DNA from: Pragia fontium DSM 5563 = ATCC 49100
GTDB taxonomy: Bacteria > Pseudomonadota > Gammaproteobacteria > Enterobacterales > Enterobacteriaceae
Assembly (NCBI RefSeq): GCF_900112475.1
Contig: NZ_FOLW01000008.1
Coordinates: 146,535 to 210,534 of the forward strand
DNA length: 64,000 nt
Direction of reading: 5' to 3'
Shown: one piece after another, positions 50,244 to 63,630 of the stretch
Layout: the number at the start of each line of letters is the position of its first letter
Position numbering within the stretch: the first letter of the stretch is position 1
Made by a program: the position numbers and the translations under genes
Notes under the pieces: generated by a model
The model's input: the letters and a program-made list of their open reading frames with translations, nothing else
Told to the model about the DNA's origin: nothing
Databases searched by the model: none

Positions 50244-50888
50244 ATGACGCTCTTCTTACAAAACTGTTTATCTTACCCGGTCATTATTTTCAGTGGTTTG
50301 TTATTAATTGTCCTGTTTTATTGGGTCTGTGCCGCCTTTGGCCTGTTGGACATTGATATTCTCAACATTGACAGTCCGGATATGAATATTGACAGCCTTG
50401 ATGCCTCAGCCTTAGCGGGCTGGCTAACCAAGCTCGGCCTTGCCGGTATCCCCCTCACCGTTATTATTACCTTAGTGACGCTCATTGGCTGGCTACTCAG
50501 TTATTTTAGCGTACACCTGATGCTGCGCTGGATAGAGACTGACTTTATTCGCTACTTATTAGGCACAGCCGCTTTCCTACTGATTGCGTTTATCGCCCTC
50601 CTGCTGACTTCAATGTTATTGAAACCATTGCGACCGATACTGGCCAATCATAATAAATCTAAAAGCGTGACCGGACTTATTGGCAAAATCGCTGAAGTTC
50701 GCTCTTCCATTGTCACCCTTCAACGTGGTGAAGCACTGATGGAAGACGGCGGAGGTGGTTTAATCCTACAAATACGCGCCCCGGAAGATGCTGGTATTGT
50801 CAGAGGCGATCGCGTGGTATTAATCCGCTATGATGCGGCAACACATAGCTATGAAGTGGTGAGTGAAACCGAGTTTAATCGGCTATAA
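50244..50888 (+). CDS. YqiJ/NfeD-like inner-membrane protein: multiple TM helices plus a C-terminal OB-fold-like soluble domain. Partner of the flotillin gene
   Basis: 214 aa. Three or four hydrophobic helices, then …TGLIGKIAEVRSSIVTLQRGEALMEDGGGGLILQIRAPEDAGIVRGDRVVLIRYD…, a β-rich NfeD-type C-terminus. Lies immediately upstream of the SPFH gene. Confidence 0.6.
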   Translation: MTLFLQNCLSYPVIIFSGLLLIVLFYWVCAAFGLLDIDILNIDSPDMNIDSLDASALAGWLTKLGLAGIPLTVIITLVTLIGWLLSYFSVHLMLRWIETDFIRYLLGTAAFLLIAFIALLLTSMLLKPLRPILANHNKSKSVTGLIGKIAEVRSSIVTLQRGEALMEDGGGGLILQIRAPEDAGIVRGDRVVLIRYDAATHSYEVVSETEFNRL

Positions 50889-51012
50889 GTCACACCAAAC
50901 AATTTTATTTGTAAACCTAACTATCTGACGGCCCTAAAGTCATTTGGGCTTAGATGAATAGTCAATTAAGTCCTTGTGGGACTCAGGACCCTAACAACAT
51001 GGAGAAACACCT

Positions 51013-53196
51013 ATGGTCATGGCAGATATAATGCCGTTCTTAACCATTATTGCATCGGTCATCATTGTAATTTTGGGCCTTTTTGGATTGTTTAAAGCGT
51101 TTTATATCAAAGTACCACAAGGCACCGCCCTGATCGTCAACGATATGTCATCGCAACCTAAAGTCCATTTTACCGGTGCGTTGGTTTATCCGGTCATTTA
51201 CAAAAAAGAGTTTATGCGCATCTCTTTGCTGACGCTGGAAGTTGACCGTCGTAGTAAAGATGGCCTGATCTGTAAAGATAACCTGCGTGCTGACATCACC
51301 GTTGCCTTTTACCTACGCGTGAATGAAACCACCGAAGACGTGTTAAAAGTGGCCAAAAACATTGGCGTTGAACGCGCATCGGATCATCAGGCGGTTAGTG
51401 CCTTGTTTAGTGCTAAGTTCTCTGAAGCACTGAAAACGGTTGGTAAGCAATTTGAGCTGTACAAGCTGTTTGAAGATCGGCAGAACTTCCGCGATCGCAT
51501 CATCGATGTAATTGGTAAAGATCTGAACGGCTATGCGCTGGAAGATGTCGCGATTGACTACTTAGAGCAAACGCCAAAGAGCTCACTGGATCCGAATAAC
51601 ATCTTCGATTCCGAGGGTATCCGTAAGATCACCGAGATCACCGCGATTCATAATATCGAAACCAACCAGAAAGAGCGCGATCAGGAACTGGCGATTAAAA
51701 AGAAAAACGTGGAAACCCGCGAAGCCAGTCTGGCCCTGGAACGCCAACAGGCCGATGCTGAAGCACGTCAACAGCGTGAAATTGAAAGCATCAGAGCTCG
51801 TGAAGCTGCTGAAACACTGCGCGTTAAAGAAGAAGAACGCCTGAAAGCGGAACAAGCCCGAATTCAAACTCAGCAGGAAATCGAAATCCGCGAAGAAAAT
51901 CGCCTGCGTGAAGTTGAAGTTGCTCAGCAAAACCGTACTCGTGCAGTCACCATCGAAATCGAGAAAGTCACCCGGGCAAAAGATCTGGAAGTGGTTTCTC
52001 GTGAGCGTGAAGTAGAACTACAACGTATTGAAAAAGAAAAAGCGTTGGAAGAAGAGCGCAAAAACATTGCTAACGTTATTCGTGAACGCGTTGCGGTCGA
52101 AAAAACCGTTGCTCAGGAAGAAGAACGAATTAAAGAAGTACGCATGATATCTGACGCCGATCGCCAGAAACAAGTCACCATCATTCAAGCTCAGGCAGAA
52201 GCCGAGCAAGAGTTGGTGCGTCAGGTGAAGCAAGCCGAAGCCGATGAAAACAGTGCTAAACATAAAGCTCAGGAAATCAGCACCATGGCTCAGGCTGAGC
52301 TTGAGGCTGCCGCTAAACAATCCGAAGCCAAAAAACGCATGGCGGAAGGTATCGAGGCAGAGCAGGCCGCTCTGGGTCTGGCAGAAGCCCGAGTCCGTCA
52401 GGCTCAGGCCGAAGCGGAAGAAAAAGAAGGCTTAGTGCTGGCTAACGTCACCGCAGAGAAACTGCTAGCAGAAGCCCGCGGTTCTCAGGAAAAAGGCTTG
52501 GCCGAAGCGAGAGTGAAAGAAGCTCAGGCTGCTGCCGCAGAGAAACAAGGTCTGGCTGAAGCTAAAGTACTGGAAGAAAAACTCACTGCTCAAGCGCGCG
52601 GTGATGAACAACAAGCTCTGGCGAAAGAGAAACTGGGTCTGGTTGATGCCAAAGTATTGGAAGAAAAACTGGTAGCTCAGGCTCGCGGTGAAGGTCAGCT
52701 AGGTTCAGCCCAAGCGGAAGTTGTACGTCAGCGTCTTAAAGCTGAAGCGGATGGTTTAACCGATAAATTTACCGCTATGGGTAACCTGAATACCACGGCT
52801 CGCGAGCACGAAGAGTTCCGTATGCAGTTGGAAAAACACTTTGAGCAAAGCATGGCTTCTATCGCCGCCAATAAAGAAATTGCCAGAGAGCAAGCCGATG
52901 TTCTGGCGGCGGCACTCAGCAAAACCAACATCGATATTGTGGGTGGCGACGGCAGCTTCTTTAATACCTTCTCTAAAGCCCTTAGCGTTGGTAAAGCCAT
53001 TAATGGCGTAGTAGACAAGAGCCCACTGGTACAAGACGTTGTGCAGAAGCTGTTAACCAGCGATAAAGCGGGTCAGAAACTCGATCTGGACGCGTTATTA
53101 CAAAACCCGGAAGTTCAGGCGTTGATTCAGCAATTCACCGCTGCCAAAACGCTACCGGCTGCTGCACCAAAAAATAACTACGATTCACAAGAGTAA
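51013..53196 (+). CDS. Flotillin-like SPFH (band-7) domain protein with an extended EA-repeat coiled coil (YqiK/FloT-like)
   Basis: 727 aa. N-terminal TM anchor (FLTIIASVIIVILGLFGLF), SPFH core (…YIKVPQGTALIV…ISLLTLEVD…DNLRADITVAFYLRV…), then about 400 aa of E/A/K/Q-rich coiled coil. Confidence 0.8.
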   Translation: MVMADIMPFLTIIASVIIVILGLFGLFKAFYIKVPQGTALIVNDMSSQPKVHFTGALVYPVIYKKEFMRISLLTLEVDRRSKDGLICKDNLRADITVAFYLRVNETTEDVLKVAKNIGVERASDHQAVSALFSAKFSEALKTVGKQFELYKLFEDRQNFRDRIIDVIGKDLNGYALEDVAIDYLEQTPKSSLDPNNIFDSEGIRKITEITAIHNIETNQKERDQELAIKKKNVETREASLALERQQADAEARQQREIESIRAREAAETLRVKEEERLKAEQARIQTQQEIEIREENRLREVEVAQQNRTRAVTIEIEKVTRAKDLEVVSREREVELQRIEKEKALEEERKNIANVIRERVAVEKTVAQEEERIKEVRMISDADRQKQVTIIQAQAEAEQELVRQVKQAEADENSAKHKAQEISTMAQAELEAAAKQSEAKKRMAEGIEAEQAALGLAEARVRQAQAEAEEKEGLVLANVTAEKLLAEARGSQEKGLAEARVKEAQAAAAEKQGLAEAKVLEEKLTAQARGDEQQALAKEKLGLVDAKVLEEKLVAQARGEGQLGSAQAEVVRQRLKAEADGLTDKFTAMGNLNTTAREHEEFRMQLEKHFEQSMASIAANKEIAREQADVLAAALSKTNIDIVGGDGSFFNTFSKALSVGKAINGVVDKSPLVQDVVQKLLTSDKAGQKLDLDALLQNPEVQALIQQFTAAKTLPAAAPKNNYDSQE
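52366..52710 (+). repeat. In-frame tandem repeats of about 120 nt (40 aa) encoding alternating GLAEARV(K/R)xAQAxAAEK and GLxxAKVLEEKLxAQARGxxQ units inside the flotillin gene
   Basis: Near-identical nucleotide stretches, for example gctaaagtactggaagaaaaactcactgctcaagcgcgcggtga and gccaaagtattggaagaaaaactggtagctcaggctcgcggtga. EA repeats are a known flotillin feature. Confidence 0.6.
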
Positions 53197-53204
53197 TGAA
53201 TAAG

Positions 53205-53295
53205 CCAGACTACTGCGGTTCACCGCAGTAGTCTGGTCGCTTCATGGCATTAATTAAGATAAGCCTATTATTTCCATGGGCTTATCTTAGTTAAT
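53205..53295 (+). promoter_or_regulatory. Two long stem-loops in the 116-bp flotillin/giant-gene spacer: a 14-bp perfect stem at 53205-53236 and a 15-bp stem with one mismatch at 53251-53295
   Basis: ccagactactgcgg-ttca-ccgcagtagtctgg with no strong U-tract after it. taattaagataagcc-(13 nt)-ggcttatcttagtta ends 18 nt before the giant-gene ATG. Confidence 0.55.
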
Positions 53296-53312
53296 TTCTC
53301 CGTCAATACAGC

Positions 53313-56300
53313 ATGTCGCATGACCAGACAGGACGTTTGCGCCATGATACGGAACCCGAGTTAACGCTTATAAAGTCAACTTCGATCAAGGGAACGTTAA
53401 ACGCCATGTCAGATAGCCAAGTGAATAATCGCGAGCAAGAATTACTGGATAACGCCGTTGCTGAAGGCGGTGCCTATGATATTTTACGTAAGCGTTTATC
53501 TGAACAGGGTCAACAAATACACGACAAAGCGCACCAGCTAAACCAACGCCGTCTGGAAGAGTTTGGCAAAAGCCAGATGGATATCATTGGGCGTATGCGC
53601 ATCCGTACCGAAAATAACTGCGTCGCCCGGGATATTGTACGCGTTGGCGACTGGTTACTCTTCGGCTATAACGTTTTCATTGGACTCAAGAAAGAAACCC
53701 GCATTGAAGACGTATTTTCACTGTATCGACTAAAAGAAGAAAACGGTGAATATGATGTTGAGTCGGTTCCTTTAACCGGCACTTTCCTGAATATCACCAG
53801 CTTCGTTCAAGACTTTAATGAACTGTATACCTATTATAAAAACACCCAGTTACTGCAATTAGTTGAACGTGACGGCAAGCTGCTGGCCAGCTTTCAAATC
53901 GGTGAGCGCATTACCGATATTCGGGTGTTTCGCTGGTCCATTTCCAGTGATAAAACTGAAATAAAATATATTGATAACCGTGGTGAGCGAGATATCGCCC
54001 TGCCCCCGGCCTATGATTTTGAATGGCAAAAAACCACTCGCGAAAATGCGATTAACGGCCGCCATCCACACATGAACATTCTGGATACCGTCTTCGTTGA
54101 AACTATCGGTGGTGACCTGACCATCAAGTGTGAAAACAATACTGAAGATGGACTGGGAATTTACCGTGAGGCGGTGTTAGACAAAACCCAATCGCTGGAT
54201 GATGCACAGATTGAGTATGCCCAAACCGGTAGCCTGATTCTGCTAAAAATTCTGCCTTACCGAGAAGATACCTGGCGGTATCTGGTTTATAACACCATCA
54301 CTCAAACCGTACAGCGTATTGATGCGATTGGTTCTGCCTGTATTCAGCTTCCGGAAGATCACGGTATTATCTTCCCCGGTGGCTATTATCTACAAAGTGG
54401 TGAATACAAAACATTTGACCAGCCGATGGATGGAATGCGTTTCCGTCGTATTCGTCGATCGCCTAATGGCGAAGACGTGATGTATATTTTTTACGAACCC
54501 AATTTCGGTCGATTGGCGTTGTTTAACTACAACATGATTGAACGTAAATTGCAGAATCCGCTATTCGGCCATGGTTATGCCATGCTGGAAGATGGCCGTA
54601 TGGTTCTGTTTGAAGGTCAATCAGATGAGCCAACGCGTATTCACCCGATGCAGGTTTGGCAAACGCCATTCTATTCCGATGAATTTGCTGCGCTACAGCC
54701 GGCTAACAATAGCTTCTTTGGACGCATTGGCAACGCCGAGCTGGTACGCGGAATATCCGACCTCTACCATATTGCCAAAGAGATTGAACAGCAGCAGATA
54801 TCTTCACAGCTGTATGAAAAACTGTGCCAAGACGCTCGCCGACTGATCGATCTTTATTACTGGCTCAATGATGAACACAGCCTGAATGCCACTATTCTGC
54901 TGAAAGAAATCGCCAACACTGGCGAACTGGTACTGGATGAATACGAGAAAGTAGAAAGTATTCGTCGTCAGTCAACCAGAGCCATGAATGAGGCCACATC
55001 GCGTCAGAAACAGCTCTTGTCTCTGATGTTGCCTGACAGTTGGCATAACGCCCAGCAGTTTGTTGATGCGCTGAATGATCTCAGCGTGCAACGAGGTCAT
55101 CTGATTACCCTGCGCGACTACCGCTATATTGATTTGTCTCGTCTTGATGAGATGGAACAACAATTGGCTGAAAGTCAGGAACGCATCTCATTGGCTACGG
55201 CGGAGTTCCTTGCCAGCGAGCAAGCCCTGCAACCGTTCACCGATCAATTGCAGGCGTTAGATAAGCAAACTCAGGCCGCCGCCAACAGTTCACAACTGGT
55301 TGAGCCGATGGCCGGCATGGACAAGATGTCTGCTGATTTGGATATGCTCTCGAATTTGATGGCTTCACTAAAGTTCGAAGACACCACACAGCAAACCCAT
55401 ATCATCGAGGCGATTTCAGAAATCTATGCCCGCCTGAATCAGGCGCGAGCACGTTTACAGCAGCGCCGTAAAGAACAGAGTTCGGTGGAGTCTGTCGCCC
55501 AATTTGGCGCTCAATTTAAACTTTTCAGCCAGAGCATTACCAATGCGCTGACGCTGGCGACGGATCCTGAACGCTGTGACGAACAGCTCTCGCGTCTGCT
55601 GGTGCAGTTGGAAGAACTGGAAACCCAATTCAACGAACACGAAGAATTCCTCAATGACATTCTAAGCAAACGCGAAGAAATGCTGGAAACCTTCGAAACC
55701 CATAAGCAATCGCTACTGGATGAACGTCAACGCAAGTCACAGAATTTACAGGTTGCCGCTGAACGGCTGCTGGATAGCCTACAGCGCCGAACGGCCAAGT
55801 TCACTACTCTTGATGAGCTAAATGCGTTCTTTGCTTCCGACCCCCTGTCATTAAAAACCCGGGAAATTGTCGAGCGTTTACGCGCACTCAAAGACAGCGT
55901 TAAAGCTGACGATATTGATGCCAAATTTAAGGCTGCCCGCGATCAAGCGATTCGCAGCCTGCGCGATAAATCCGAAATATTTGAAGACGGTGGTAACGTA
56001 ATTAAACTGGGTCCGCGCCATCGTTTCAGTGTCAATACACAGGAACTGGATCTGACCATTTTGCCAAGAGGCGATCGACTATATCTGCACCTGACGGGTA
56101 CGGATTATCAAGAGCCTATTGATAGCCCTGAATTAGAAGCCCTGAAAGAGTACTGGCAAATATCGCTGGAGTCAGAATCGCCGGATATTTACCGGGCCGA
56201 GTATCTGGCCTACTCACTAATTTACGCCGCCAGCAAAGAATTGGATGGACTGAGCCTCGAGAACCTAAAAGCGCTGGTTAATAAACCAGAAGCGCTAGAA

Positions 56301-58343
56301 AAATTGGTCCGTGATTTTGCCTCACCACGCTATAAAGAAGGCTATGAGAAAGGCATCCACGATCACGATGCGGTAGCCATTTTACAGAAACTGATCCCCG
56401 TTAGGGAAAGTGCCGATCTGTTACGCTTTAATCCACATGCTCGCAGCATTGCCGTCCTTTTCTGGCAGCATGTTCATAGCCAAGAGTTACCCGCTCTTTG
56501 GCCAGAGCGAGCGCGTACCAGCATCAATATTCATCAGCTATTTCGTAACGATGCCGGTTTACTGGATCTTCAAGCTGAAATTGAAGCGGAACTCAGCCTA
56601 TTTCTTGAACAATACCCAATTGCCTGCCAGCCTTATCAACAATCACAGGCTGCTGAATACTTGAGCTTCGCATTAGGCCGAACACCGGTTGAATTCAGCT
56701 TTAGCAAATATGCTCGTACCCTGTCGGAAGGCTTACAGTCCCAGTTAGAAAAAGCCCATATGTGGGGCGACTTCAACCGCTCACAGCAGAATTTAGCCAA
56801 ACGCTGGTCACAACGTTGGTCATTGGCAGACAATTGGTTGCAAGGGCTTTGCTCTCTGCCAGAATATCAAAATCTAAAAAGCTATATTTCGGAAGCCATC
56901 GTCATCCTGCTGTTAGATAAAGGCATAAAGACCCGGTTTAGTGAAGTCGACTTGCACTTCACCGTGACAAACCTGATGGGTGAGCATCCTCTGATTCAAA
57001 ACCAATCCCTGACGCTTAGCCTGGATGATTATTTCAGCCGGATGCGTAAACAACGCAAGCAGTTCATTCCAGCCTACCATCGCTATCAGGAACTGCGTCA
57101 GGAAGTCTTAAGCCAGCAGAGAAATCAGCTGCGTCTGCATGAATTTAAGGCTCGCCCTCTCAGTTCATTCGTGCGTAATAAGCTGATCAATGACGTTTAT
57201 TTGCCGATCATCGGCGATAATCTAGCTAAACAAATTGGTGCGTTGGGTGAAGGAAAACGTACCGACCTGATGGGCTTACTATTAATGATCTCGCCGCCCG
57301 GCTACGGTAAAACCACACTGATGGAATATATCGCAAATCGCCTAGGCCTGATATTCATGAAGATTAATGGACCAGCCTTAGGTCACGATGTGTTGTCGCT
57401 GGATCCACAGCAAGCCCCGAATGCCACCGCCCGTCAGGAATTAGAGAAATTAAATCTGGCACTGGAAATGGGCAATAACGTTATGCTGTATGTCGATGAT
57501 ATCCAGCATACCAATGCCGAATTCCTGCAAAAATTCATCTCTCTTTGTGATGGTACCCGGCGAATTGAAGGGGTATGGAAAGGCAAGACCAAAACTTATG
57601 ATATGCGCGGGAAAAAATTCTGTGTCGTGATGGCGGGTAACCCTTATACCGAATCAGGCGAAGTGTTTAAAATTCCTGATATGCTGGCCAACCGCGCGGA
57701 TATTTATAATCTCGGCGAAGTTCTGGGTGGCATGGAAGAGGCATTTGCCCTGAGCTATATTGAAAACAGCTTAACCTCTAATCCGGTACTGGCACCGCTG
57801 GCACTGAGAAACATGAGCGATCTGTATTTATTTGTTGATAAAGCAATGGGTAAACCGTTCTCTAATAATGCGCTGAGCTATCAATACAGTGAAGCGGAGA
57901 TCGCCGAAATTGTTGCCATTCTTGAACGATTAATCACGCTGCGAGACGTGGTGTTAAAAGTGAATCAGCAATATATCGCCAGTGCTGCACAGTCAGATAA
58001 ATACCGTACTGAACCGAGCTTTAAGCTTCAGGGTAGCTATCGTAATATGAATAAACTGACGGAGAAAATTTCGGCGGTGATGAATCCGGCCGAAGTTCGC
58101 CGCATTCTTGACGATCACTATTTAGGTGAAGCTCAACTGCTAACCAGTGGCGCAGAAGAAAACTTATTAAAGCTGGCTGAAATCCGCAATATCATGTCAC
58201 CTCAGGAAGAGCAACGCTGGGGACTGATAAAGCGTGACTTTATGAAGAATAAAGCACTGGGCGGAGATAATGCGGAAGTTGGCGATCGCGTCGTAGCTCA
58301 ACTGGCCGATCTGGTAGAAAGTGTACAAGCCCTGAGGAATTGA
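53313..58343 (+). CDS. Giant (1676-aa) uncharacterised protein: N-terminal β-rich region, central coiled coil, and a C-terminal MoxR-class AAA+ ATPase module
   Basis: Single uninterrupted ORF. Walker A LLMISPPGYGKTTLMEY (about aa 1325-1335, nt about 57298-57318). Walker B MLYVDDIQH (nt about 57487-57510). Sensor-1-like VVMAGNP and arginine-finger-like LANRADIYNL, as in the MoxR/RavA family (ATxNP … LLDRF). The central region is heptad-rich (…LDEMEQQLAESQERISLATAEFLASEQALQPF…). The start codon is uncertain: 53313 or 53406. Confidence 0.6.
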   Translation: MSHDQTGRLRHDTEPELTLIKSTSIKGTLNAMSDSQVNNREQELLDNAVAEGGAYDILRKRLSEQGQQIHDKAHQLNQRRLEEFGKSQMDIIGRMRIRTENNCVARDIVRVGDWLLFGYNVFIGLKKETRIEDVFSLYRLKEENGEYDVESVPLTGTFLNITSFVQDFNELYTYYKNTQLLQLVERDGKLLASFQIGERITDIRVFRWSISSDKTEIKYIDNRGERDIALPPAYDFEWQKTTRENAINGRHPHMNILDTVFVETIGGDLTIKCENNTEDGLGIYREAVLDKTQSLDDAQIEYAQTGSLILLKILPYREDTWRYLVYNTITQTVQRIDAIGSACIQLPEDHGIIFPGGYYLQSGEYKTFDQPMDGMRFRRIRRSPNGEDVMYIFYEPNFGRLALFNYNMIERKLQNPLFGHGYAMLEDGRMVLFEGQSDEPTRIHPMQVWQTPFYSDEFAALQPANNSFFGRIGNAELVRGISDLYHIAKEIEQQQISSQLYEKLCQDARRLIDLYYWLNDEHSLNATILLKEIANTGELVLDEYEKVESIRRQSTRAMNEATSRQKQLLSLMLPDSWHNAQQFVDALNDLSVQRGHLITLRDYRYIDLSRLDEMEQQLAESQERISLATAEFLASEQALQPFTDQLQALDKQTQAAANSSQLVEPMAGMDKMSADLDMLSNLMASLKFEDTTQQTHIIEAISEIYARLNQARARLQQRRKEQSSVESVAQFGAQFKLFSQSITNALTLATDPERCDEQLSRLLVQLEELETQFNEHEEFLNDILSKREEMLETFETHKQSLLDERQRKSQNLQVAAERLLDSLQRRTAKFTTLDELNAFFASDPLSLKTREIVERLRALKDSVKADDIDAKFKAARDQAIRSLRDKSEIFEDGGNVIKLGPRHRFSVNTQELDLTILPRGDRLYLHLTGTDYQEPIDSPELEALKEYWQISLESESPDIYRAEYLAYSLIYAASKELDGLSLENLKALVNKPEALEKLVRDFASPRYKEGYEKGIHDHDAVAILQKLIPVRESADLLRFNPHARSIAVLFWQHVHSQELPALWPERARTSINIHQLFRNDAGLLDLQAEIEAELSLFLEQYPIACQPYQQSQAAEYLSFALGRTPVEFSFSKYARTLSEGLQSQLEKAHMWGDFNRSQQNLAKRWSQRWSLADNWLQGLCSLPEYQNLKSYISEAIVILLLDKGIKTRFSEVDLHFTVTNLMGEHPLIQNQSLTLSLDDYFSRMRKQRKQFIPAYHRYQELRQEVLSQQRNQLRLHEFKARPLSSFVRNKLINDVYLPIIGDNLAKQIGALGEGKRTDLMGLLLMISPPGYGKTTLMEYIANRLGLIFMKINGPALGHDVLSLDPQQAPNATARQELEKLNLALEMGNNVMLYVDDIQHTNAEFLQKFISLCDGTRRIEGVWKGKTKTYDMRGKKFCVVMAGNPYTESGEVFKIPDMLANRADIYNLGEVLGGMEEAFALSYIENSLTSNPVLAPLALRNMSDLYLFVDKAMGKPFSNNALSYQYSEAEIAEIVAILERLITLRDVVLKVNQQYIASAAQSDKYRTEPSFKLQGSYRNMNKLTEKISAVMNPAEVRRILDDHYLGEAQLLTSGAEENLLKLAEIRNIMSPQEEQRWGLIKRDFMKNKALGGDNAEVGDRVVAQLADLVESVQALRN

Positions 58344-58350
58344 TTGACCA

Positions 58351-58923
58351 GTGAAGCAGTGGATAAAACAGCGCATTAAACTACTTGGCATATTGGCGAT
58401 CGTCTTGATCGCCATTCAGTGCCTGAATACGCTGACTAGTGGTTATTTAAACCAGTTTGGTATACTTCCTCGTACCAGCCAAGGGTTAGTGGGTATTCTA
58501 TTTTCTCCTTTTCTACACGGTGACTGGGGACATCTGCTTAGCAATCTTCCGGTGCTATTAATTTTAAGCGGATTATTACTCAGCAATTCTATTCGCTACT
58601 ATATTTCAGCCAGTGTTTTTATCATTTTACTGGAGGGATTATTAGTCTGGCTATTTGCGCGTTCGGCTATTCATATTGGTGCCAGCGGCTGGATTTTTGG
58701 CTTATGGTCGCTATTGTTAATCAATGCCTTCACTCAGCGCAGAATACGAGATTTTATTTTGGCGCTGCTTATTTTAGTTTATTTTGGTGGCATGGCGTCA
58801 GGACTACTCCCCAGTGAACCAGGCATATCAACAGAAGGCCATATTGCAGGCGCCATTGCTGGAGGTGCGTTTGCTTTTATTAGTAGAAAATTCATGAGAA
58901 AAAAAAGTCACCACACCCCTTAA
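58351..58923 (+). CDS. Rhomboid-family intramembrane serine protease, minimal 6-TM core
   Basis: 190 aa with a GTG start 8 bp after the giant gene's stop. TM2 motif HGDWGHLLSNL (H-x4-H-x3-N). Catalytic GASGWIFG (GxSG) in TM4. Catalytic His in EGHIAGAIAGG in TM6. Confidence 0.75.
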   Translation: MKQWIKQRIKLLGILAIVLIAIQCLNTLTSGYLNQFGILPRTSQGLVGILFSPFLHGDWGHLLSNLPVLLILSGLLLSNSIRYYISASVFIILLEGLLVWLFARSAIHIGASGWIFGLWSLLLINAFTQRRIRDFILALLILVYFGGMASGLLPSEPGISTEGHIAGAIAGGAFAFISRKFMRKKSHHTP

Positions 58924-59237: not shown

Positions 59238-59921
59238 ATGGAAAATAAAGAACTGGAGTTATATCTGAAGAGTACGCTGGCTGATTTAACATTAAGCCAC
59301 AGTGAACGTACTCAGTTAAGAGAATTAAGCCAATCCTTAAGTACTGAACAATCCGGCTTTATGCGTAATCTTGCCTTTGATTTAGTCAGAGAACAGCTTG
59401 ATACCGCACCTCAAAACCTCCTGCCAGTATTAAAATGGTTAGAAACCGTCATAAAGACCTTCGATATTGCCAACCAACAGAAGCAAAGCCACTCTACCGC
59501 CTACTTCTCACCAGGAGAAACCTGTCGGGAAAAAATTCGATCAATGCTTTCTCAGGCGACGAAAAAAGTCGATATATGCGTTTTTACTATTGCCGATGAC
59601 GCTATCACCGAATCTATCCTCAGTGCCCACCAGCGCCAGGTTCAGATACGTATTATCACTGATAATGATAAATCAGAAGATCAGGGAAGTGATATTGATT
59701 ACCTGCAACATAAAGGGATCTCCATCGTTACCGATAATAGTCCTTATCATATGCACCATAAATTCGCTATTTTCGATGATACTTACCTGCTAAACGGCAG
59801 TTTTAACTGGACCAGAAGCGCATCGCTGCACAACTGCGAAAATATTCTGATCACCGATTCCACTGAACTTTTAACCCGTTATCAACAAGAGTTTATTAAG
59901 CTGTGGCAGAGGTTTAGTTGA
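59238..59921 (+). CDS. Phospholipase-D superfamily protein with a single HKD motif (Nuc / MitoPLD-like), cytoplasmic, with an N-terminal helical extension of about 100 aa
   Basis: 227 aa. HKD signature HHKFAIFDDTYLLNGSFNWTRSA (H-x-K-x4-D … GSxN). No signal peptide. An A-GG-TA SD precedes the ATG. Confidence 0.7.
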   Translation: MENKELELYLKSTLADLTLSHSERTQLRELSQSLSTEQSGFMRNLAFDLVREQLDTAPQNLLPVLKWLETVIKTFDIANQQKQSHSTAYFSPGETCREKIRSMLSQATKKVDICVFTIADDAITESILSAHQRQVQIRIITDNDKSEDQGSDIDYLQHKGISIVTDNSPYHMHHKFAIFDDTYLLNGSFNWTRSASLHNCENILITDSTELLTRYQQEFIKLWQRFS

Positions 59922-60114
59922 TGAATAATCTGCTGAAAATAAAGCAAATGGAGGTAAAAAAATCAAAGACCGCTTTTCAGTTTACCCCTCAAAAAAAGGT
60001 AGATATACTCCCTCAAAAAGGAAGTGTCACTCTACGCAATGATTGCATAAAGTTCCCTCGGTTTGATGTCCCTTTATGTAATATCGTGACTTTCTATAAA
60101 AATAACAGAAACAC

Positions 60115-61486
60115 TATGAATAATAATATAAAACGTATAACGCTTTGCTGTGGTATTGCTCTCGTTCTGGCGGCTTGTTCTAATCCACCATCTCGAAAGA
60201 ACTTTGACTACGAAATTTCTCAAGGAAATCTGGAAGTAGCACAAAAGATCGCACTAACTGAAGGCGTCACCGCTGAGACTGATGCAACCACCGAGCTATT
60301 ATGGTCGCTGGAAGCAGGTGCTCTGCTACGTATGACTAATCAGCTTGATCGTTCAACCAAAGTATTTGATGGTGCAGAAAACCTGATCAAAGATAACGAA
60401 ACTCAGAATTTAGCCGCATCCGGTTTCAGCCAAGCTGCATCCATGGTAGTTAACGACAACATTATGGATTACACCCCGCGAGTTTATGACCGCGTGATGG
60501 TGAATACCTATAAAGCCCTTAACTTTTGGCAGCAGTCTGATTTCGCTAATGCCCGAGTAGAATGGAACCGCGTCGATGACCGTCAACGCCGTGCCGCAGA
60601 GTATTTCTCCAAAGAAATTAATGCACAAAAAAATGAAGTAAAAAGTAATAAGCTTGGGGAAAGCTACTCTAAATCCATGGAAACGCTTGAAGGATCGGGT
60701 ATCGATGTTTCAAAATGGGCGCCCTATGATGGTTATATTAACCCGGCCTCACTCTATCTGCATGGTCTCTACTTCCTGATTAACAATGAAAGTGCCGCTG
60801 ATTTAAATAAAGCCAAAGAGAGCCTAAAACGCGCCTATGCATTGACCAGAAGCAAGCAAATTCGCGCTGACCTTAATTTAGCCAACAAAGGTCGTAGCGT
60901 AGCACCCGGGGTTTGGGTTATTTTTGAAAATGGAACCTCGTCTAAAAAAGTAGAACGCCGCGTCGATTTACCATTAATTTTAGTCACGAGTCGTGTAGCT
61001 TATGCCGGTATTGCTTTACCGACCCTTGAGTCAGGTAGCCCGGCGTTTTCTAATCTTTCAGTCAATGGAGGAGGCAAAACGGAATCCTTCGCCAACATGG
61101 ATAAAATTATCCAGGGTGAATTTAAAACGGAATTTACCGGTATCCTTATCAAGGAATTAGCCAGAGCGGTGCTAAAAACTGCAGCACAAGCTTCGATGAT
61201 GAATTCCGACAACAGTACCGTAAGGATACTCGGCGCTATCACCGGTATCGCTCAAGCGGTAACCACGCAGGCTGATATTCGTAGCTGGCATACGCTGCCT
61301 TACGATTTTCAGGTGACCTACGTGAAGTGGCCAAAAAGCGGTCAAGTGCAATTAAGTCCGTCGGGCGGAGCGCCAATAACTGTCGATTTACCGGCAACGC
61401 CTCAACCCGTTGTTGTTTATGTGCGTGCTCTGAATGCGAGTACCACACCGCAGGTTAACGTGTTAACCAGTAAGAATGCGATGTAG
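60115..61486 (+). CDS. Predicted lipoprotein (about 457 aa), unknown family. An alternative upstream start at 59921 overlaps the PLD-like stop as TGATG
   Basis: From 60115: MNNNIKRITLCCGIALVLAACSNPP is a textbook lipoprotein signal peptide with an LAAC lipobox. The reading frame stays open 65 codons further upstream to an ATG that overlaps the preceding stop and has a GAGG SD. See findings. Confidence 0.55.
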
Positions 61487-61543
61487 ACCTATTCAGTTAG
61501 GCACCGTTATCGCACTGACCTTTAAACTGTATTGAGAACTTTG

Positions 61544-62161
61544 ATGATGAATATTTTAAACAAAAAAACGTTTCTTGCCGCGGCCTTTGCCCTTTCTTTA
61601 ACCGGCTGTGCTCAGGAAGGCGCTTACTATGTTGATAGTAAGAACGATAACGTTGCCGTGATGGGACTGGACTATAAAGATTTTGAAATGGCTGCCCAAA
61701 ATATGGTTGACGACATGTTAAGTTCAGACTTACTTGTTCATCCACAAGGCGGTCGTTATGTGCTAACCGTAACCGGCATTGTTAACGACACTGACCAACG
61801 TATCGATACCGATCAGTTAACCAAAAAAATCCGCTCTAGCCTGTTAAACTCAGGTCGTTTTGTGGTTACAACAGCGATTACCGCTAATGGACCAGAAGAT
61901 GAAATGACGCGTAAAGTACGTCAGCTGCGTAAATCTAAAATGGTTAACCAAAAAACCGTTAAGAAAGATGGCCGTGTAATCGCACCAGACTTCTCATTAA
62001 CCGGTAAAATCATTCAACAAAACCAACGTGTTAACTCTAAAACACAGCAAGTTGAATACTATTTCCAGCTAACGCTGACCAATCTGGACGATGGCTTAGC
62101 CTATTGGGAAAAAGAGTATCCAATCATCAAGCGTGGCGACAACCGCACCGCAAGCTGGTAA
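61544..62161 (+). CDS. Lipoprotein of the LpoB-like / DUF799 (Neisseria GNA1162-type) class
   Basis: MMNILNKKTFLAAAFALSLTGCAQ lipoprotein signal. Core …RYVLTVTGIVNDTDQRIDTDQLTKKIRSSLLNSGRFVVTT… resembles the LpoB / TolB-N-like fold motif (…VLLVDSVNNRTNGSLNAAEATETLRNALANNGKFTLVS… in E. coli LpoB). Confidence 0.5.
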   Translation: MMNILNKKTFLAAAFALSLTGCAQEGAYYVDSKNDNVAVMGLDYKDFEMAAQNMVDDMLSSDLLVHPQGGRYVLTVTGIVNDTDQRIDTDQLTKKIRSSLLNSGRFVVTTAITANGPEDEMTRKVRQLRKSKMVNQKTVKKDGRVIAPDFSLTGKIIQQNQRVNSKTQQVEYYFQLTLTNLDDGLAYWEKEYPIIKRGDNRTASW

Positions 62162-62185
62162 TCGGCTACTGTCACTATTCTGGCG

Positions 62186-62220
62186 TTATGCCGCAGAACC
62201 ACAATCGTTCTGCGGCATAA
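62186..62220 (+). other. 14-bp perfect stem-loop (ttatgccgcagaac-cacaatc-gttctgcggcataa) between the last two envelope genes, with no U-tract
   Basis: Seen directly in the sequence. It could be an intra-operon attenuator or mRNA-stability element that sets the stoichiometry of the two flanking products. Confidence 0.5.
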
Positions 62221-62253
62221 CATAAACGTGTTTAATCCATTAGGGCTTTCTTA

Positions 62254-63630
62254 ATGAAAAAATGGATCTTGGTACTGGTTGGTCTTTTGGCGTTTTCACC
62301 TGCAGTTTATGCAAAAATTGAAACCGTTGAAGCACAGGGATATGGTGAAACCTACGAAAAAGCGGTTGATTCGGCTTTAGCGGATGCCGTTCGTCAGGTT
62401 AACGGAATGACCGTAAGTACGCAGTCAGAACGCGCTGGTGATTTTGTTCGTGTCAAAGATAAAGTTGATGCCACTATCGAAGGAAAAGGCACCTACGTTC
62501 AGAACGAAAAGAACAAAGATGACTCTTTTTTGGGTAACAAAGGCGTAGACAGTACTTATACAGAAAATCTCGATGTTAACGTAGGCGGTAACGCTAATCG
62601 TGACTTAACCGTTAATACCGGCAAAAGTGCGCAAATCGATACGCGCAGCTCGGGTACCGTTAAAGGCTATAAAGTTAAAACTCGTGATTGTGATGCCAAA
62701 GGCTGTACCGTTGTTTTGACCGTTGAAATCGATAAAGTTGAACGTAAAACATCACAAGCTTCGTCCAAACGCGATCGTTTAGCCGTTATTACTACCGGTA
62801 ACCGTAGTCGTTCAGCATTTGCTAACACTCTACGTCAGGAAATCACTGACCGTATCGTGCAATCACAACGTTTTACCGTATTAGATCGTAGCTCGACGAA
62901 TGACAAAGCGTTTGAACAGGAAGAGAAATTTCTGGAAGGCCGTCTAAATAACTCTATTGATATTAAGCAAAGCGCCCTTCCCGCTGATTATATTCTGGTT
63001 ATTAACGTCACTGAAGCCGGTGTGAAAACCACCACTAAAGTAACCAGCGTTGATTTAACCGGTGAGTTTGATGTTAGCAGTTCGCACAAAACCAAAGTTA
63101 CCGTACGTTACTCGCTGCTTGAAGCGGCAACCCACGGTATCCAGTGGTCTGACTCCAGCGTATTTGAGCAAGGTGGCAGATACATTGAGACAGCGCGTAA
63201 GCAAATTAGCGACGTTATTGCTGATAAAATTGTCAACAAATTAACCCCCGCTAAAGTTGTCGCAGTAACCAACGGACAAGTGATTATCAACCGCGGTGAA
63301 GCCATGGTTTACGATGGCGATCGCTTTGATATCTTCTCTCAAGGCGAAGCTCTGGTCGATCCAGATACCGGTGAAGTACTCGGTGCGGCTGAAGAAAAAG
63401 TAGCAACTATTGTCATTAACTCGATTAAAGACAAAATTTCTTACGGCATCGTAGAAAGCGGTAAAATTGACGCCGTTGAGAAAGGGGCTATTGCCCGTCT
63501 GGCTGCCCCTCTTCCAGTAGAGAAGAAAGCAGCAGAGGCGAAAACGACTCAAGCTAAACCTAAAGCTAAGCCGAAACCAAAAGCTGATGCTCAAAGACTG
63601 GGTGACTCAGGTGGCGTCTTCCTGAAATAG
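62254..63630 (+). CDS. Secreted CsgG-like domain protein (CsgG/HfaB family core) with additional N- and C-terminal domains
   Basis: Signal peptide MKKWILVLVGLLAFSPAVYA. Core RLAVITTGNRSRSAFANTLRQEITDRIVQSQRFTVLDRS … ADYILVINVTEAG parallels CsgG (IAVxxFxNxTG … LxxSGRFxVVER … ADYLVTGSVTEFG). C-terminal β-rich module …VAVTNGQVIINRGEAMVYDGDRFDIFSQGEALVDPDTGEVLG…, and a K/P/A-rich tail. Confidence 0.6.
   Translation: MKKWILVLVGLLAFSPAVYAKIETVEAQGYGETYEKAVDSALADAVRQVNGMTVSTQSERAGDFVRVKDKVDATIEGKGTYVQNEKNKDDSFLGNKGVDSTYTENLDVNVGGNANRDLTVNTGKSAQIDTRSSGTVKGYKVKTRDCDAKGCTVVLTVEIDKVERKTSQASSKRDRLAVITTGNRSRSAFANTLRQEITDRIVQSQRFTVLDRSSTNDKAFEQEEKFLEGRLNNSIDIKQSALPADYILVINVTEAGVKTTTKVTSVDLTGEFDVSSSHKTKVTVRYSLLEAATHGIQWSDSSVFEQGGRYIETARKQISDVIADKIVNKLTPAKVVAVTNGQVIINRGEAMVYDGDRFDIFSQGEALVDPDTGEVLGAAEEKVATIVINSIKDKISYGIVESGKIDAVEKGAIARLAAPLPVEKKAAEAKTTQAKPKAKPKPKADAQRLGDSGGVFLK

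What the first reader, a model, noticed from the sequence alone, without database searches (positions are those of the whole stretch)
50244..58923. SPFH/flotillin, NfeD-like protein, giant MoxR-type AAA+ protein and a coupled rhomboid protease: a candidate undescribed membrane-microdomain proteolysis module
Four co-directional genes sit in an insertion relative to the E. coli amiD-ybjQ junction. They are a YqiJ/NfeD-like membrane protein, a 727-aa flotillin with a long EA coiled coil, a 1676-aa protein whose only recognisable module is a C-terminal MoxR-class AAA+ ATPase, and a minimal rhomboid protease whose GTG start lies 8 bp after the giant gene's stop. SPFH proteins are known to scaffold AAA+ proteases, as in HflK/C-FtsH. 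Here the same three ingredients appear as separate polypeptides: an SPFH scaffold, an AAA+ unfoldase-like ATPase and an intramembrane protease. This suggests a quality-control or signalling-by-cleavage machine operating in a flotillin microdomain. I do not know of a described system with this composition.
Basis: partly seen in the sequence, partly recalled or inferred. Interest (0 to 1): 0.85.

Follow-up and report, generated by a model that had tools for sequence, protein, structure and literature searches.

The report
Flotillin stress operon with added rhomboid

Summary
The four ORFs exist at the stated coordinates in Pragia fontium. Three corrections apply. The giant gene most likely starts at 53406, giving 1645 aa. 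It carries an N-terminal beta-propeller (DUF3686) and DUF7902 as well as the AAA+ module. A cytoplasmic HKD phospholipase-D gene (59238-59921) also belongs to the system.

The rhomboid is facultative, following the giant gene in 14 of 76 species loci. A reverse survey shows its subfamily is not placed at random. Of 70 assessable metagenomic loci, 24 sit directly after the giant gene and 18 sit between yjfJ (PspA) and yjfK. Plasmid pQBR103 carries all these parts in one array. I found no paper describing this link.

Verdict: a new variant of a known system. The "split HflKC-FtsH proteolysis machine" reading is only partly supported. Function is inferred, not shown.

The parts
50244..50888 (+). 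YqiJ/YuaF-like (NfeD2-type) inner-membrane protein, 214 aa. It has N-terminal transmembrane segments and a C-terminal OB-like soluble domain. Orthologue of P. aeruginosa BacC (PA3730).
   Evidence: ORF. BLASTP to E. coli YqiJ gives 23% identity over 159 aa, E 4e-5, colinear. phmmer to P. aeruginosa BacC gives E 4e-53. It lies directly upstream of flotillin in 71 of 72 loci. No Pfam hit.
51013..53196 (+). Flotillin (SPFH2/YqiK type), 727 aa. Architecture: N-terminal transmembrane segment, Band-7 domain, long E/A-rich coiled coil, C-terminal tail. Orthologue of BacD (PA3729).
   Evidence: Band_7 PF01145 at E 3.9e-7 on residues 33-181 when the N-terminus is scanned alone. 30% identity to E. coli YqiK over 444 aa, E 1e-48. 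phmmer to BacD gives E 3.7e-300.
53196..53295 (.). Two inverted repeats in the flotillin-to-giant intergenic region (53196-53245, containing a 14-bp perfect stem at 53205-53236, and 53249-53295). Possibly an mRNA hairpin, attenuator or operator. Role unknown.
   Evidence: The second repeat is conserved in sequence in Limnobaculum (L006 9849-9892).
53406..58343 (+). Giant ATPase, 1645 aa from the likely true start (the maximal ORF starts at 53313). Databases name it 'DNA repair ATPase'. Orthologue of BacE (PA3728). Order of modules: N-terminal helix, beta-propeller, long helical region, unannotated middle region, MoxR-like AAA+ module, C-terminal helical region.
   Evidence: 100% identical to the 1645-aa Pragia fontium protein and 68% identical to P. 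aeruginosa P0082. Pfam hits. 961 clusters at 50% identity. Shine-Dalgarno sequence and start.
53520..54860 (+). DUF3686 region of the giant protein, a beta-propeller.
   Evidence: PF12458 at E 4.7e-206. AF2 model with pLDDT 87, beta-rich over model residues 59-419. All top Foldseek PDB hits are beta-propellers, including CyRPA, Elp1 and Ski8 WD40 domains, sialidase, PON1 and YncE.
55221..55475 (+). DUF7902 helical segment of the giant protein.
   Evidence: PF25472 at E 1.2e-26. Helical in the model.
57180..57989 (+). AAA+ module of the giant protein. Walker A GYGKT lies at 57300-57314 and Walker B DD at 57495-57500. The module includes a pre-sensor-1 beta-hairpin, the sensor-1 motif AGNP and the NRAD motif.
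58351..58923 (+). Minimal six-transmembrane rhomboid intramembrane serine protease, 190 aa with a GTG start. The catalytic Ser112 codon is at 58684-58686 and the His164 codon at 58840-58842. Its position suggests translational coupling to the giant gene. It is an accessory part of the system.
   Evidence: PF01694 at E 3.4e-18. Invariant H61, N65, S112 and H164. 7-nt spacer and Shine-Dalgarno sequence. Linkage statistics.
59238..59921 (+). Cytoplasmic single-HKD phospholipase-D-superfamily protein, 227 aa. Orthologue of BacF (PA3727).
   Evidence: PLDc_2 at E 3.1e-30. No signal peptide or transmembrane segment in the translation; HKD motif HHKFAIFDD...GSFNWT. phmmer to P. aeruginosa BacF gives E 9e-75. 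The order Giant-Rhomboid-PLD recurs in L010, L011, L013, L026, L028, L057, L077, L082, L096, L097, L100, L105, L125 and L129.

Best explanation
This is the Pragia fontium copy of a widespread, chromosomally inherited inner-membrane stress and remodelling operon. The same operon is known as bacCDEF in Pseudomonas aeruginosa and as the 'band-7/flotillin + YqiJ + beta-propeller-AAA+ (+PLD)' PspA-associated operon of Ravi et al. 2024. Here it occurs in the short form that lacks the CesT(DUF2170)-PspA pair. It carries an accessory rhomboid protease inserted between the ATPase and the PLD.

Proposed mechanism (inferred, not shown):
- Flotillin and its NfeD-type partner YqiJ build an oligomeric scaffold on the cytoplasmic face of the inner membrane.
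- The giant protein uses its beta-propeller and helical arms to dock on that scaffold, or on a PspA polymer encoded elsewhere. Its MoxR-like AAA+ ring then assembles, remodels or disassembles the scaffold at the cost of ATP. It would act as a remodeller, not a threading unfoldase.
- The cytoplasmic HKD enzyme locally alters inner-leaflet phospholipids.
- Where present, the rhomboid cleaves a transmembrane segment inside or next to this domain. Candidates are the flotillin N-terminal anchor, a YqiJ helix or damaged membrane proteins. Cleavage would switch the response on or off, or clear damaged proteins.

Shown here: homology of all parts, gene order and its conservation, the folds, the intact catalytic residues and the non-random linkage of the rhomboid subfamily to PspA-type operons. 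Taken from the literature for the Pseudomonas orthologues: co-transcription, biofilm and virulence phenotypes, and induction on phage infection. Inferred: every protein-protein interaction and every substrate.
For: Orthology to bacCDEF:
- phmmer E-values against the P. aeruginosa proteins are 4e-53 (YqiJ-like), 3.7e-300 (flotillin) and 9e-75 (PLD). The giant protein is 68% identical to P0082.
- The P. aeruginosa locus reads DUF2170-PspA-213aa-688aa-giant-PLD.

Prior description:
- Ravi et al. 2024 describe the operon, including abbreviated forms without PspA and the HKD gene.
- bacABCDEF is co-transcribed and its proteins rise together in a bacA mutant.
- PA3728-PA3732 are up-regulated in phage-infected cells.
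- A B. subtilis SPFH protein links PspA to the membrane (PMC8581546, title and abstract).

Conservation:
- YqiJ and flotillin lie upstream in 71 of 72 loci, and PspA lies upstream in 41 of 71.
- The family has 961 clusters at 50% identity, reaching Deinococcus, Streptomyces and Hymenobacter.
- There are no phage hits. The 13 'plasmid' records are mostly megaplasmids, chromids or chromosomes filed as plasmids.

Folds: beta-propeller and MoxR-like AAA+.

Rhomboid linkage:
- 14 of 76 species loci have it directly after the giant gene, spread over Budviciaceae, Xenorhabdus, Providencia, several Pseudomonas, Entomomonas, Oleiphilaceae and Cellvibrionaceae.
- In the reverse survey, 24 of 70 assessable loci are after the giant gene and 18 of 70 are inside yjfIJ-[rhomboid]-KLMC.
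- One locus has the rhomboid divergent from DUF2170 (L036).
- pQBR103 carries YjfI-PspA-rhomboid-DUF2491-DUF350-DUF1190-GSP synthase-YqiJ-like-SPFH-giant as one co-directional array.
- On the rhomboid tree, the after-giant context is spread over the whole subfamily, and the PspA context forms one nested clade.
- The catalytic residues are invariant.
Against: - No experiment addresses any Pragia gene, and no substrate or interaction is known for any member.
- The window has no PspA or DUF2170 gene and no sigma-54 -24/-12 element upstream of the first gene. Regulation and the link to PspA in this organism are therefore assumed.
- The rhomboid is absent from about 80% of giant-gene loci.
- 28 of 70 rhomboid loci are in unrelated contexts. 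Examples are next to serS in Photorhabdus, next to a ROK kinase gene in Proteus, and next to groEL.
- P. mirabilis keeps the two genes about 520 kb apart.
- In Pragia a 314-nt AT-rich gap separates the rhomboid from the PLD gene, so co-transcription of the PLD is not assured.
- MoxR ATPases normally work with a VWA partner, and none was found.
- The Walker B motif is DD rather than DE.
Confidence: 0.6

Rival explanations
1. The module is a split version of HflK/C-FtsH. In this view the flotillin cage holds an AAA+ unfoldase that extracts or unfolds membrane proteins and hands them to the rhomboid, making a dedicated microdomain proteolysis machine.
For: All three ingredients are encoded together, and the rhomboid's position suggests translational coupling to the ATPase. 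The order Giant-Rhomboid recurs in distant lineages. Eukaryotes have SPFH-rhomboid-AAA+ assemblies, such as the SPY complex of STOML2, PARL and YME1L1 (PMC10818064).
Against: Proteolysis cannot be the core function, because 62 of 76 species loci have no adjacent rhomboid. P. aeruginosa bacABCDEF has none. The ATPase groups with MoxR, midasin and dynein rather than with the classical FtsH/Clp unfoldases. I saw no aromatic pore-loop motif after strand beta2 (sequence; my inference). The same rhomboid subfamily also sits in yjfIJKLMC operons that have no flotillin or giant gene within 8 kb.
Confidence: 0.12
2. The rhomboid is a bystander. It is a small housekeeping membrane protease that landed at the 3' end of the operon and was carried along, with no functional tie to it.
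For: Close orthologues lie in unrelated contexts in Photorhabdus and Proteus. 28 of 70 metagenomic loci are in other contexts. P. mirabilis has both genes unlinked. More distant relatives sit next to mer genes or mfd.
Against: Three different junction types all involve PspA-type operons: after the giant gene, between yjfJ and yjfK, and divergent from DUF2170. Together they account for 42 of 70 assessable loci. The pQBR103 array unites all parts. The after-giant context is spread across the whole subfamily tree. The rhomboid ORF abuts or overlaps the end of the giant gene in most after-giant loci (ORF boundaries).
Confidence: 0.2
3. The cluster is an anti-phage or abortive-infection defence system. 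In this view the giant ATPase senses infection and the HKD enzyme, helped by the rhomboid, is the toxic effector.
For: The PLD gene has weak similarity to DrmC, MkoB/C and DpdK. PA3728-PA3732 are induced by phage infection. The module carries large ATPase, membrane-protein and PLD genes.
Against: PADLOC gives no hit for the four genes. The system is core and highly conserved: 68% identity over 1645 aa between Pragia and Pseudomonas, and 3222 member sequences in the P. aeruginosa cluster. It is absent from phages and essentially absent from mobile plasmids. It is syntenic within Budviciaceae. Induction by phage is what a phage-shock-type membrane-stress response would also show.
Confidence: 0.06
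4. The database name is right: the giant protein is a DNA-repair ATPase, and the HKD protein is a nuclease.
For: The Pfam description of DUF3686 reads 'ATPase involved in DNA repair' and NCBI names the protein 'DNA repair ATPase'. The HKD protein scores weakly against NucT models.
Against: I found no literature under DUF3686. There is no DNA-binding or nuclease domain hit. The gene is invariably linked to membrane proteins YqiJ and flotillin, and often to PspA. The RuvB-type hits cover only the P-loop and fall far below cut-off, at 19.6 bits against 282.
Confidence: 0.02

Closest known systems
P. aeruginosa bacABCDEF operon (PA3732-PA3727; 'biofilm-associated cluster'). This is the PspA-associated band-7/flotillin + YqiJ + beta-propeller-AAA+ (+HKD) operon of Ravi et al. 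2024.
   Same: It has orthologous YqiJ-like, flotillin, giant ATPase and PLD genes in the same order. The published description also covers abbreviated forms without PspA.
   Different: The Pragia locus has no DUF2170-PspA pair and no sigma-54 element. It has a rhomboid gene between the ATPase and the PLD, which neither paper mentions: 'rhomboid' occurs 0 times in both main texts and in the one held supplement.
E. coli yqiJK and B. subtilis yuaFG (floT): the NfeD2-SPFH2 flotillin pair
   Same: It shows the same two-gene core and order, with detectable homology. The conserved NfeD-SPFH operon logic is described in PMC2636767.
   Different: E. coli has no giant ATPase, rhomboid or PLD next to yqiJK. 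No E. coli complete genome matched the giant gene's 3' region, 1644 nt covering the AAA+ module, in a blastn search.
E. coli-type yjfIJKLMC operon (CesT/DUF2170-PspA with polyamine-related genes)
   Same: The same rhomboid subfamily is inserted there, between yjfJ and yjfK, in 18 metagenomic loci and on pQBR103.
   Different: None of these genes is in the Pragia window. Most of those loci have no flotillin or giant ATPase within 8 kb.
Mitochondrial SPY complex (STOML2/SLP2-PARL-YME1L1). From my own knowledge, also RHBDL4 with erlin1/2 and p97.
   Same: An SPFH scaffold, a rhomboid protease and an AAA+ ATPase work together in one membrane domain (PMC10818064).
   Different: This is an analogy of composition only. 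YME1L is an FtsH-type AAA protease, whereas the AAA+ here is MoxR-like and fused to a beta-propeller. No physical complex has been shown. The rhomboid is optional here.
HflK/C-FtsH
   Same: An SPFH assembly is associated with an AAA+ machine.
   Different: FtsH carries its own protease domain and belongs to the classical AAA clade. By established knowledge, HflK/C face the periplasm whereas flotillin's SPFH domain is cytoplasmic. The ATPase here is MoxR-like and has no protease domain.
MoxR AAA+ ATPases (CbbQ, NorQ, RavA)
   Same: They are the best structural matches to the ATPase module, and the model has a pre-sensor-1 hairpin.
   Different: MoxR proteins are about 300 aa, stand alone and work with VWA-domain partners. 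This module is embedded in a 1645-aa protein, no VWA domain was detected, and the Walker B motif is DD.

Membership tests
Bac-type / PspA-associated flotillin-AAA+ operon (Ravi et al. 2024; P. aeruginosa bacABCDEF) | A YqiJ/YuaF-like multi-transmembrane protein encoded directly upstream of the flotillin | tested here: met
   Present in 71 of 72 loci.
Bac-type / PspA-associated flotillin-AAA+ operon (Ravi et al. 2024; P. aeruginosa bacABCDEF) | A membrane protein with a transmembrane segment, a band-7 domain, a coiled coil and a flotillin tail | tested here: met
Bac-type / PspA-associated flotillin-AAA+ operon (Ravi et al. 2024; P. aeruginosa bacABCDEF) | [quoted passage not shown] | tested here: met
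   Pfam; models and fold searches; 68% identity to PA3728.
Bac-type / PspA-associated flotillin-AAA+ operon (Ravi et al. 2024; P. aeruginosa bacABCDEF) | An HKD phospholipase-D-superfamily gene at the 3' end (present in some Proteobacteria) | tested here: met
   In Pragia it is separated from the rhomboid by a 314-nt gap.
Bac-type / PspA-associated flotillin-AAA+ operon (Ravi et al. 2024; P. aeruginosa bacABCDEF) | A CesT/DUF2170-PspA pair at the 5' end (full form only; abbreviated forms lack it) | tested here: not met
   There is no PspA or DUF2170 ORF anywhere in the 64-kb window. The locus is therefore the abbreviated form described.
Bac-type / PspA-associated flotillin-AAA+ operon (Ravi et al. 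2024; P. aeruginosa bacABCDEF) | Co-transcription, and induction by membrane stress or through sigma-54 | tested here: inconclusive
   No sigma-54 -24/-12 match was found upstream. The consensus scans gave fewer promoter- and terminator-like sites than expected from shuffles and do not settle the transcript structure. No expression data exist for Pragia.
Rhomboid intramembrane serine protease (Pfam PF01694, MEROPS S54) | Profile match above the curated threshold across the six-transmembrane core | tested here: met
   66.7 bits against a cut-off of 22.6, covering profile positions 4-141 of 143.
Rhomboid intramembrane serine protease (Pfam PF01694, MEROPS S54) | A catalytic Ser in GxSG (TM4), a His (TM6) and the TM2 HxxxN motif | tested here: met
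   S112 in GASG, H164, H61 and N65 are invariant in 19 subfamily members.
Rhomboid intramembrane serine protease (Pfam PF01694, MEROPS S54) | Proteolytic activity on a transmembrane substrate | not testable with these tools
   No substrate is known. This needs biochemistry or proteomics.
Rhombosortase (TIGR03902) | Score above the NCBIfam equivalog cut-off | tested here: not met
   30.3 bits against a cut-off of 84.
MoxR-class AAA+ ATPase | An AAA+ fold whose closest solved relatives are MoxR proteins | tested here: met
MoxR-class AAA+ ATPase | A pre-sensor-1 beta-hairpin and a helix-2 insert | tested here: inconclusive
   The model has a hairpin (strands 203-208 and 211-216) between the Walker B and sensor-1 strands. 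The helix-2 region (about 139-157) is modelled as a loop with short helices, not a clear hairpin.
MoxR-class AAA+ ATPase | A partner protein with a VWA/MIDAS domain encoded nearby | tested here: not met
   No VWA hit was found in any operon protein or in the giant protein's middle region.
HflK/C-FtsH-type SPFH-AAA protease complex | An AAA+ module fused to, or paired with, a soluble protease domain of the FtsH type | tested here: not met
   The giant protein has no peptidase domain. The ATPase is not of the classical AAA clade.
Known anti-phage defence systems (PADLOC-DB 2.0) | Profile hits to defence-system proteins | tested here: not met
   There were no hits for YqiJ-like, flotillin, giant or rhomboid. 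Only the PLD gene has weak hits to MkoC and DrmC.

The most novel reading that the evidence does not exclude
A dedicated subfamily of minimal rhomboid proteases is an integral, co-evolving component of bacterial PspA/flotillin membrane-repair systems. It would be a prokaryotic counterpart of the mitochondrial SLP2-PARL-YME1L arrangement. Its intramembrane cut, for example of the flotillin or YqiJ anchor or of a stress-sensing transmembrane protein, would gate assembly or disassembly of the repair scaffold that the giant MoxR-like ATPase remodels.
Probability: 0.3. Interest if true: 0.75.

Novelty: new variant of a known kind. Interest (0 to 1): 0.55.

Why it matters
The physiological roles and substrates of most bacterial rhomboids are still unknown. 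A rhomboid subfamily found in 60% of assessable loci inside two different PspA-type operons, and together with both on one megaplasmid array, gives a concrete and testable place to look. The candidate substrates are the few membrane proteins of the flotillin/PspA stress system. The finding also suggests that pairing an SPFH scaffold with a rhomboid and an AAA+ ATPase, known from mitochondria, has a bacterial counterpart or precedent.

The core operon matters in its own right. Its Pseudomonas version affects biofilm formation and virulence and is induced by phage infection. Yet the 1645-aa beta-propeller/MoxR-like ATPase, which is misnamed 'DNA repair ATPase' in databases, has no known activity.

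Tried and rejected
- PADLOC scan of the operon proteins gave no hit for the four genes, so I did not pursue the defence reading.
- A full-text search for DUF3686 found nothing.
- Searches pairing rhomboid with PspA, YjfI, YjfJ, DUF2170, SPFH or YqiJ found no paper describing the link. The one held supplement of Ravi et al. has no mention of rhomboid.
- phmmer of the flotillin against PDB and Pfam on the full-length flotillin gave nothing, probably because of coiled-coil bias. Scanning the N-terminus alone resolved this.
- Pfam on the giant protein's middle region (456 aa), on the trimmed lipoprotein and on the 458-aa protein gave no significant hit.
- A sigma-54 -24/-12 scan upstream of the first gene and in the two long intergenic gaps found nothing upstream of the first gene or in the rhomboid-PLD gap, and only a weak partial match (7 of 11 specified positions) in the flotillin-giant gap. 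The intrinsic-terminator scan gave no convincing terminator between the rhomboid and the PLD gene.
- A search for a third conserved rhomboid context found only heterogeneous housekeeping neighbours: groEL and a pseudouridine synthase gene, serS, a ROK kinase gene, mer genes and mfd.
- The giant gene was absent from phages, and its 3' region (1644 nt, AAA+ module) found no match in complete E. coli genomes by blastn.
- I could not identify the rhomboid substrate computationally.

Full report
**1. What is in the sequence**

The window comes from Pragia fontium (Budviciaceae). The giant protein is 100% identical to the annotated 1645-aa P. fontium protein, and the locus maps to LR134531.1.

Three corrections apply.

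- The giant gene almost certainly starts at 53406. That start has a GGGA Shine-Dalgarno sequence, whereas 53313 has none. Every homologue and the NCBI call begin there.
- The giant protein is not featureless outside its AAA+ module. PF12458 (DUF3686) matches at E 4.7e-206 and PF25472 (DUF7902) at E 1.2e-26.
- The next gene, 59238-59921, encodes a cytoplasmic single-HKD phospholipase-D-superfamily protein. It belongs to the same system in other genomes.

The claim of an insertion at the E. coli amiD-ybjQ junction cannot be checked. amiD is upstream, but no ybjQ lies in the window.

**2. Identity of the parts**

- *Flotillin.* Full-length Pfam and PDB sequence searches fail, probably because of coiled-coil bias. 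The N-terminal 232 aa hit Band_7 at E 3.9e-7. The protein is 30% identical to E. coli YqiK over 444 aa, E 1e-48.
- *YqiJ-like protein.* The 214-aa protein has no Pfam hit. It aligns colinearly with E. coli YqiJ at E 4e-5.
- *Rhomboid.* It matches PF01694 above threshold. The TM2 H61/N65, the GASG serine S112 and H164 are invariant across 19 subfamily members. It is not a rhombosortase, scoring 30 bits against a cut-off of 84. Its GTG lies 7 nt after the giant gene's stop codon, with a GAGGA Shine-Dalgarno sequence inside the giant gene.

**3. The giant protein**

An AlphaFold2 model of residues 1-729 (pLDDT 87) shows an N-terminal helix, a beta-rich domain at residues 59-419, and then long helices. 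All top Foldseek hits are beta-propellers.

A model of the last 462 residues (pLDDT 89.4) shows an AAA+ fold. It has a beta-hairpin between the Walker B and sensor-1 strands.

Three differences from canonical MoxR proteins remain.

- The module is embedded in a 1645-aa protein.
- No VWA partner was found.
- The Walker B motif is an invariant DD.

I also saw no aromatic pore-loop motif after strand beta2. This argues, by inference only, against a threading unfoldase.

**4. This is a known operon**

Ravi et al. [quoted passage not shown] Some Proteobacteria add an HKD phospholipase D. The paper notes that abbreviated operons without PspA are widespread.

In P. aeruginosa this is bacABCDEF (PA3732-PA3727).

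- It was first found as a biofilm- and virulence-associated cluster (PMC2587700).
- It was later shown to be a six-gene operon, with a proposed sigma-54 promoter, whose proteins rise together in a bacA mutant (PMC10948618).
- PA3728-PA3732 are among the genes induced in phage-infected cells (PMC12041424).

The P. aeruginosa locus I fetched reads DUF2170-PspA-213aa-688aa-giant-PLD. The Pragia proteins match the last four at E 4e-53, E 3.7e-300, 68% identity and E 9e-75 respectively.

The Pragia window has no PspA or DUF2170 gene and no sigma-54 element. It is therefore the abbreviated form.

**5. Forward survey (giant gene to neighbours)**

The N-terminal region defines 961 clusters at 50% identity. 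A scan of one genome per species found at least 596 relatives, of which I analysed the best 80 with 10-kb flanks.

- YqiJ-like and flotillin lie directly upstream in 71 of 72 assessable loci.
- DUF2170-PspA lies upstream in 41 of 71 loci.
- Of 76 loci with enough downstream sequence, 9 have rhomboid plus PLD, 5 have rhomboid only, at least 7 have PLD only, and 55 have neither.

Rhomboid-positive loci are spread over Budviciaceae, Xenorhabdus, Providencia, several Pseudomonas-group genera, Entomomonas, Oleiphilaceae, Cellvibrionaceae and uncultured Gammaproteobacteria. When both genes are present, the order is always Giant-Rhomboid-PLD.

Proteus mirabilis and P. aeruginosa lack the adjacent rhomboid.

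The giant family is absent from phages, and its 3' region found no match in complete E. coli genomes by blastn. It is present in only 13 'plasmid' records, mostly megaplasmids, chromids or mislabelled chromosomes. PADLOC has no model for it.

**6. Reverse survey (rhomboid subfamily to neighbours)**

This analysis adds something new. The subfamily has 1040 relatives at E 1e-5 or better. I fetched 80 metagenomic loci using an alignment of it.

Of the 70 loci with at least 600 nt of upstream sequence:

| Context of the rhomboid | Loci |
|---|---|
| Directly after the giant gene | 24 |
| Directly after a DUF2170-PspA pair | 18 |
| Elsewhere | 28 |

The DUF2170-PspA context is the other CesT-PspA operon type, yjfIJKLMC. 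There the rhomboid is inserted between yjfJ and yjfK. Locus L149 reads DUF2170, PspA, Rhomboid, DUF2491, DUF350, DUF1190, GSP_synth.

A third junction type occurs in L036, where the rhomboid is divergent from DUF2170.

The 425-kb plasmid pQBR103 of P. fluorescens SBW25 carries all parts in one co-directional array. The order is YjfI, PspA, rhomboid, DUF2491, DUF350, DUF1190, glutathionylspermidine-synthase family, a 217-aa YqiJ-position protein, SPFH, and 'DNA repair ATPase'.

On a neighbour-joining tree of 100 rhomboids, the after-giant context is spread across the whole subfamily. The PspA context forms one nested clade, and the other contexts form scattered subclades. The simplest reading is an ancestral link to the Bac operon with later relocations, though this is only a distance tree.

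Counter-evidence is real.

- Orthologues in Photorhabdus lie next to serS, and in Proteus next to a ROK kinase gene.
- One subclade lies next to groEL.
- More distant plasmid-borne relatives are in unrelated contexts.
- P. mirabilis has the giant gene at 3.516 Mb and the rhomboid orthologue at 4.039 Mb of the same record.

I found no paper linking a rhomboid to PspA, DUF2170, YqiJ or bacterial SPFH operons. The library is incomplete, so this is absence of evidence only.

**7. How it most likely works**

Shown here: homology, conserved gene order, folds, intact catalytic motifs and non-random linkage. Taken from the literature for the Pseudomonas orthologues: co-transcription, phenotypes and induction. 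Everything else below is inferred.

- Flotillin and its NfeD-type partner form an oligomeric scaffold on the cytoplasmic face of the inner membrane. Human flotillins form a 44-mer dome (PMC13000311). A B. subtilis SPFH protein tethers PspA to the membrane (PMC8581546). Both are cited from abstracts seen.
- The giant protein docks through its propeller and helical arms. Its MoxR-like ring remodels the scaffold, or a PspA polymer, in the way Vps4 acts on ESCRT-III.
- The cytoplasmic HKD enzyme edits inner-leaflet lipids.
- The optional rhomboid cleaves a transmembrane segment in or near the domain.

I put 0.6 on this overall reading. Orthology to the Bac operon is near-certain. A functional link of the rhomboid I put at about two in three. 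The specific mechanism is much less certain.

**8. Rivals**

It is weakened because most loci lack the rhomboid, the ATPase is of the MoxR type, and the rhomboid also sits in operons without flotillin or the giant gene.
- Bystander rhomboid (0.2). It is weakened by three junction types, by 42 of 70 loci lying in PspA-type operons, and by the pQBR103 array.
- Anti-phage defence (0.06). The system is core, highly conserved and not mobile, and it has no PADLOC hits.
- A literal DNA-repair function (0.02). Only database names support it.

**9. Comparison and novelty**

The locus is a member of the Bac/PspA-associated flotillin-AAA+ operon family in its abbreviated form.

The closest analogy for the three-part composition is the mitochondrial SPY complex of STOML2, PARL and YME1L1 (PMC10818064). 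From my own knowledge, RHBDL4 with erlins and p97 is a second example. Both are analogies of composition, not homology of the ATPase.

It still gives a useful lead on bacterial rhomboid function. Interest: 0.55.

Noticed in passing
window 53196-53295: Two inverted repeats lie in the 209-nt gap between the flotillin stop and the giant gene's likely start. One is at 53196-53245, with a 14-bp perfect stem at 53205-53236. The other is at 53249-53295. The second is conserved in sequence in Limnobaculum (L006 9849-9892). It could be an attenuator or stabiliser hairpin, or an operator for an internal promoter.
   Followed up: partly
window 59918-63630: Three further co-directional genes follow the PLD gene: a 522-aa ORF, an LpoB-family lipoprotein (61532-62161) and a 458-aa protein with no family hit. 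The 522-aa ORF has a lipoprotein signal and lipobox (MNNNIKRITLCCGIALVLAAC) that begins only at codon 67, so its real start is probably 60116 rather than the annotated start overlapping the PLD stop. This trio accompanies the operon only in Budviciaceae-like loci (L004-L006, L093).
   Followed up: partly
L170 (pQBR103, NC_009444.1 84437-97641): A ten-gene co-directional array on a Pseudomonas megaplasmid fuses the yjfIJKLMC-type and flotillin/giant-ATPase-type PspA operons, with the rhomboid between PspA and DUF2491. pQBR103 is a well-studied plasmid and would be a convenient experimental system.
   Followed up: partly
L149 6574-11678 and 17 similar metagenomic loci: A yjfI-yjfJ-[rhomboid]-yjfK-yjfL-yjfM-yjfC operon variant. 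The same rhomboid subfamily is inserted into the polyamine-linked PspA operon, with no flotillin or giant ATPase within 8 kb.
   Followed up: yes
window 57495-57500 and about 56350-56375: The giant ATPase has an invariant Walker B DD (DDIQH) instead of DE. It also has an invariant GIHDxDA motif in its unannotated middle region, around residues 983-989 of the 1645-aa protein. The middle 456 aa have no Pfam hit and were not modelled.
   Followed up: no
L056 15571-17034; L102 11541-12662: Larger ORFs with weak or second rhomboid-HMM hits lie downstream of the giant gene (L056) or of the PLD gene (L102). They may be divergent or fused rhomboid-like proteins.
   Followed up: no
L171 (Phaeobacter plasmid) and 20 or more similar Rhodobacterales plasmids; L172 (Legionella): More distant relatives of the rhomboid (40-43% identity) sit on conjugative Rhodobacterales plasmids beside a mer operon, an ATP-binding protein and an Abi-family protein. 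In Legionella one sits after an M23 peptidase gene. These contexts are unrelated to PspA or flotillin.
   Followed up: partly
Database annotation of P0001-P0120: The whole giant-ATPase family is named 'DNA repair ATPase' or 'DNA repair protein' in NCBI and UniRef, and the Pfam description of DUF3686 says the same. I found no supporting evidence. The gene context is uniformly membrane-related, so the name looks like a propagated misannotation.
   Followed up: partly
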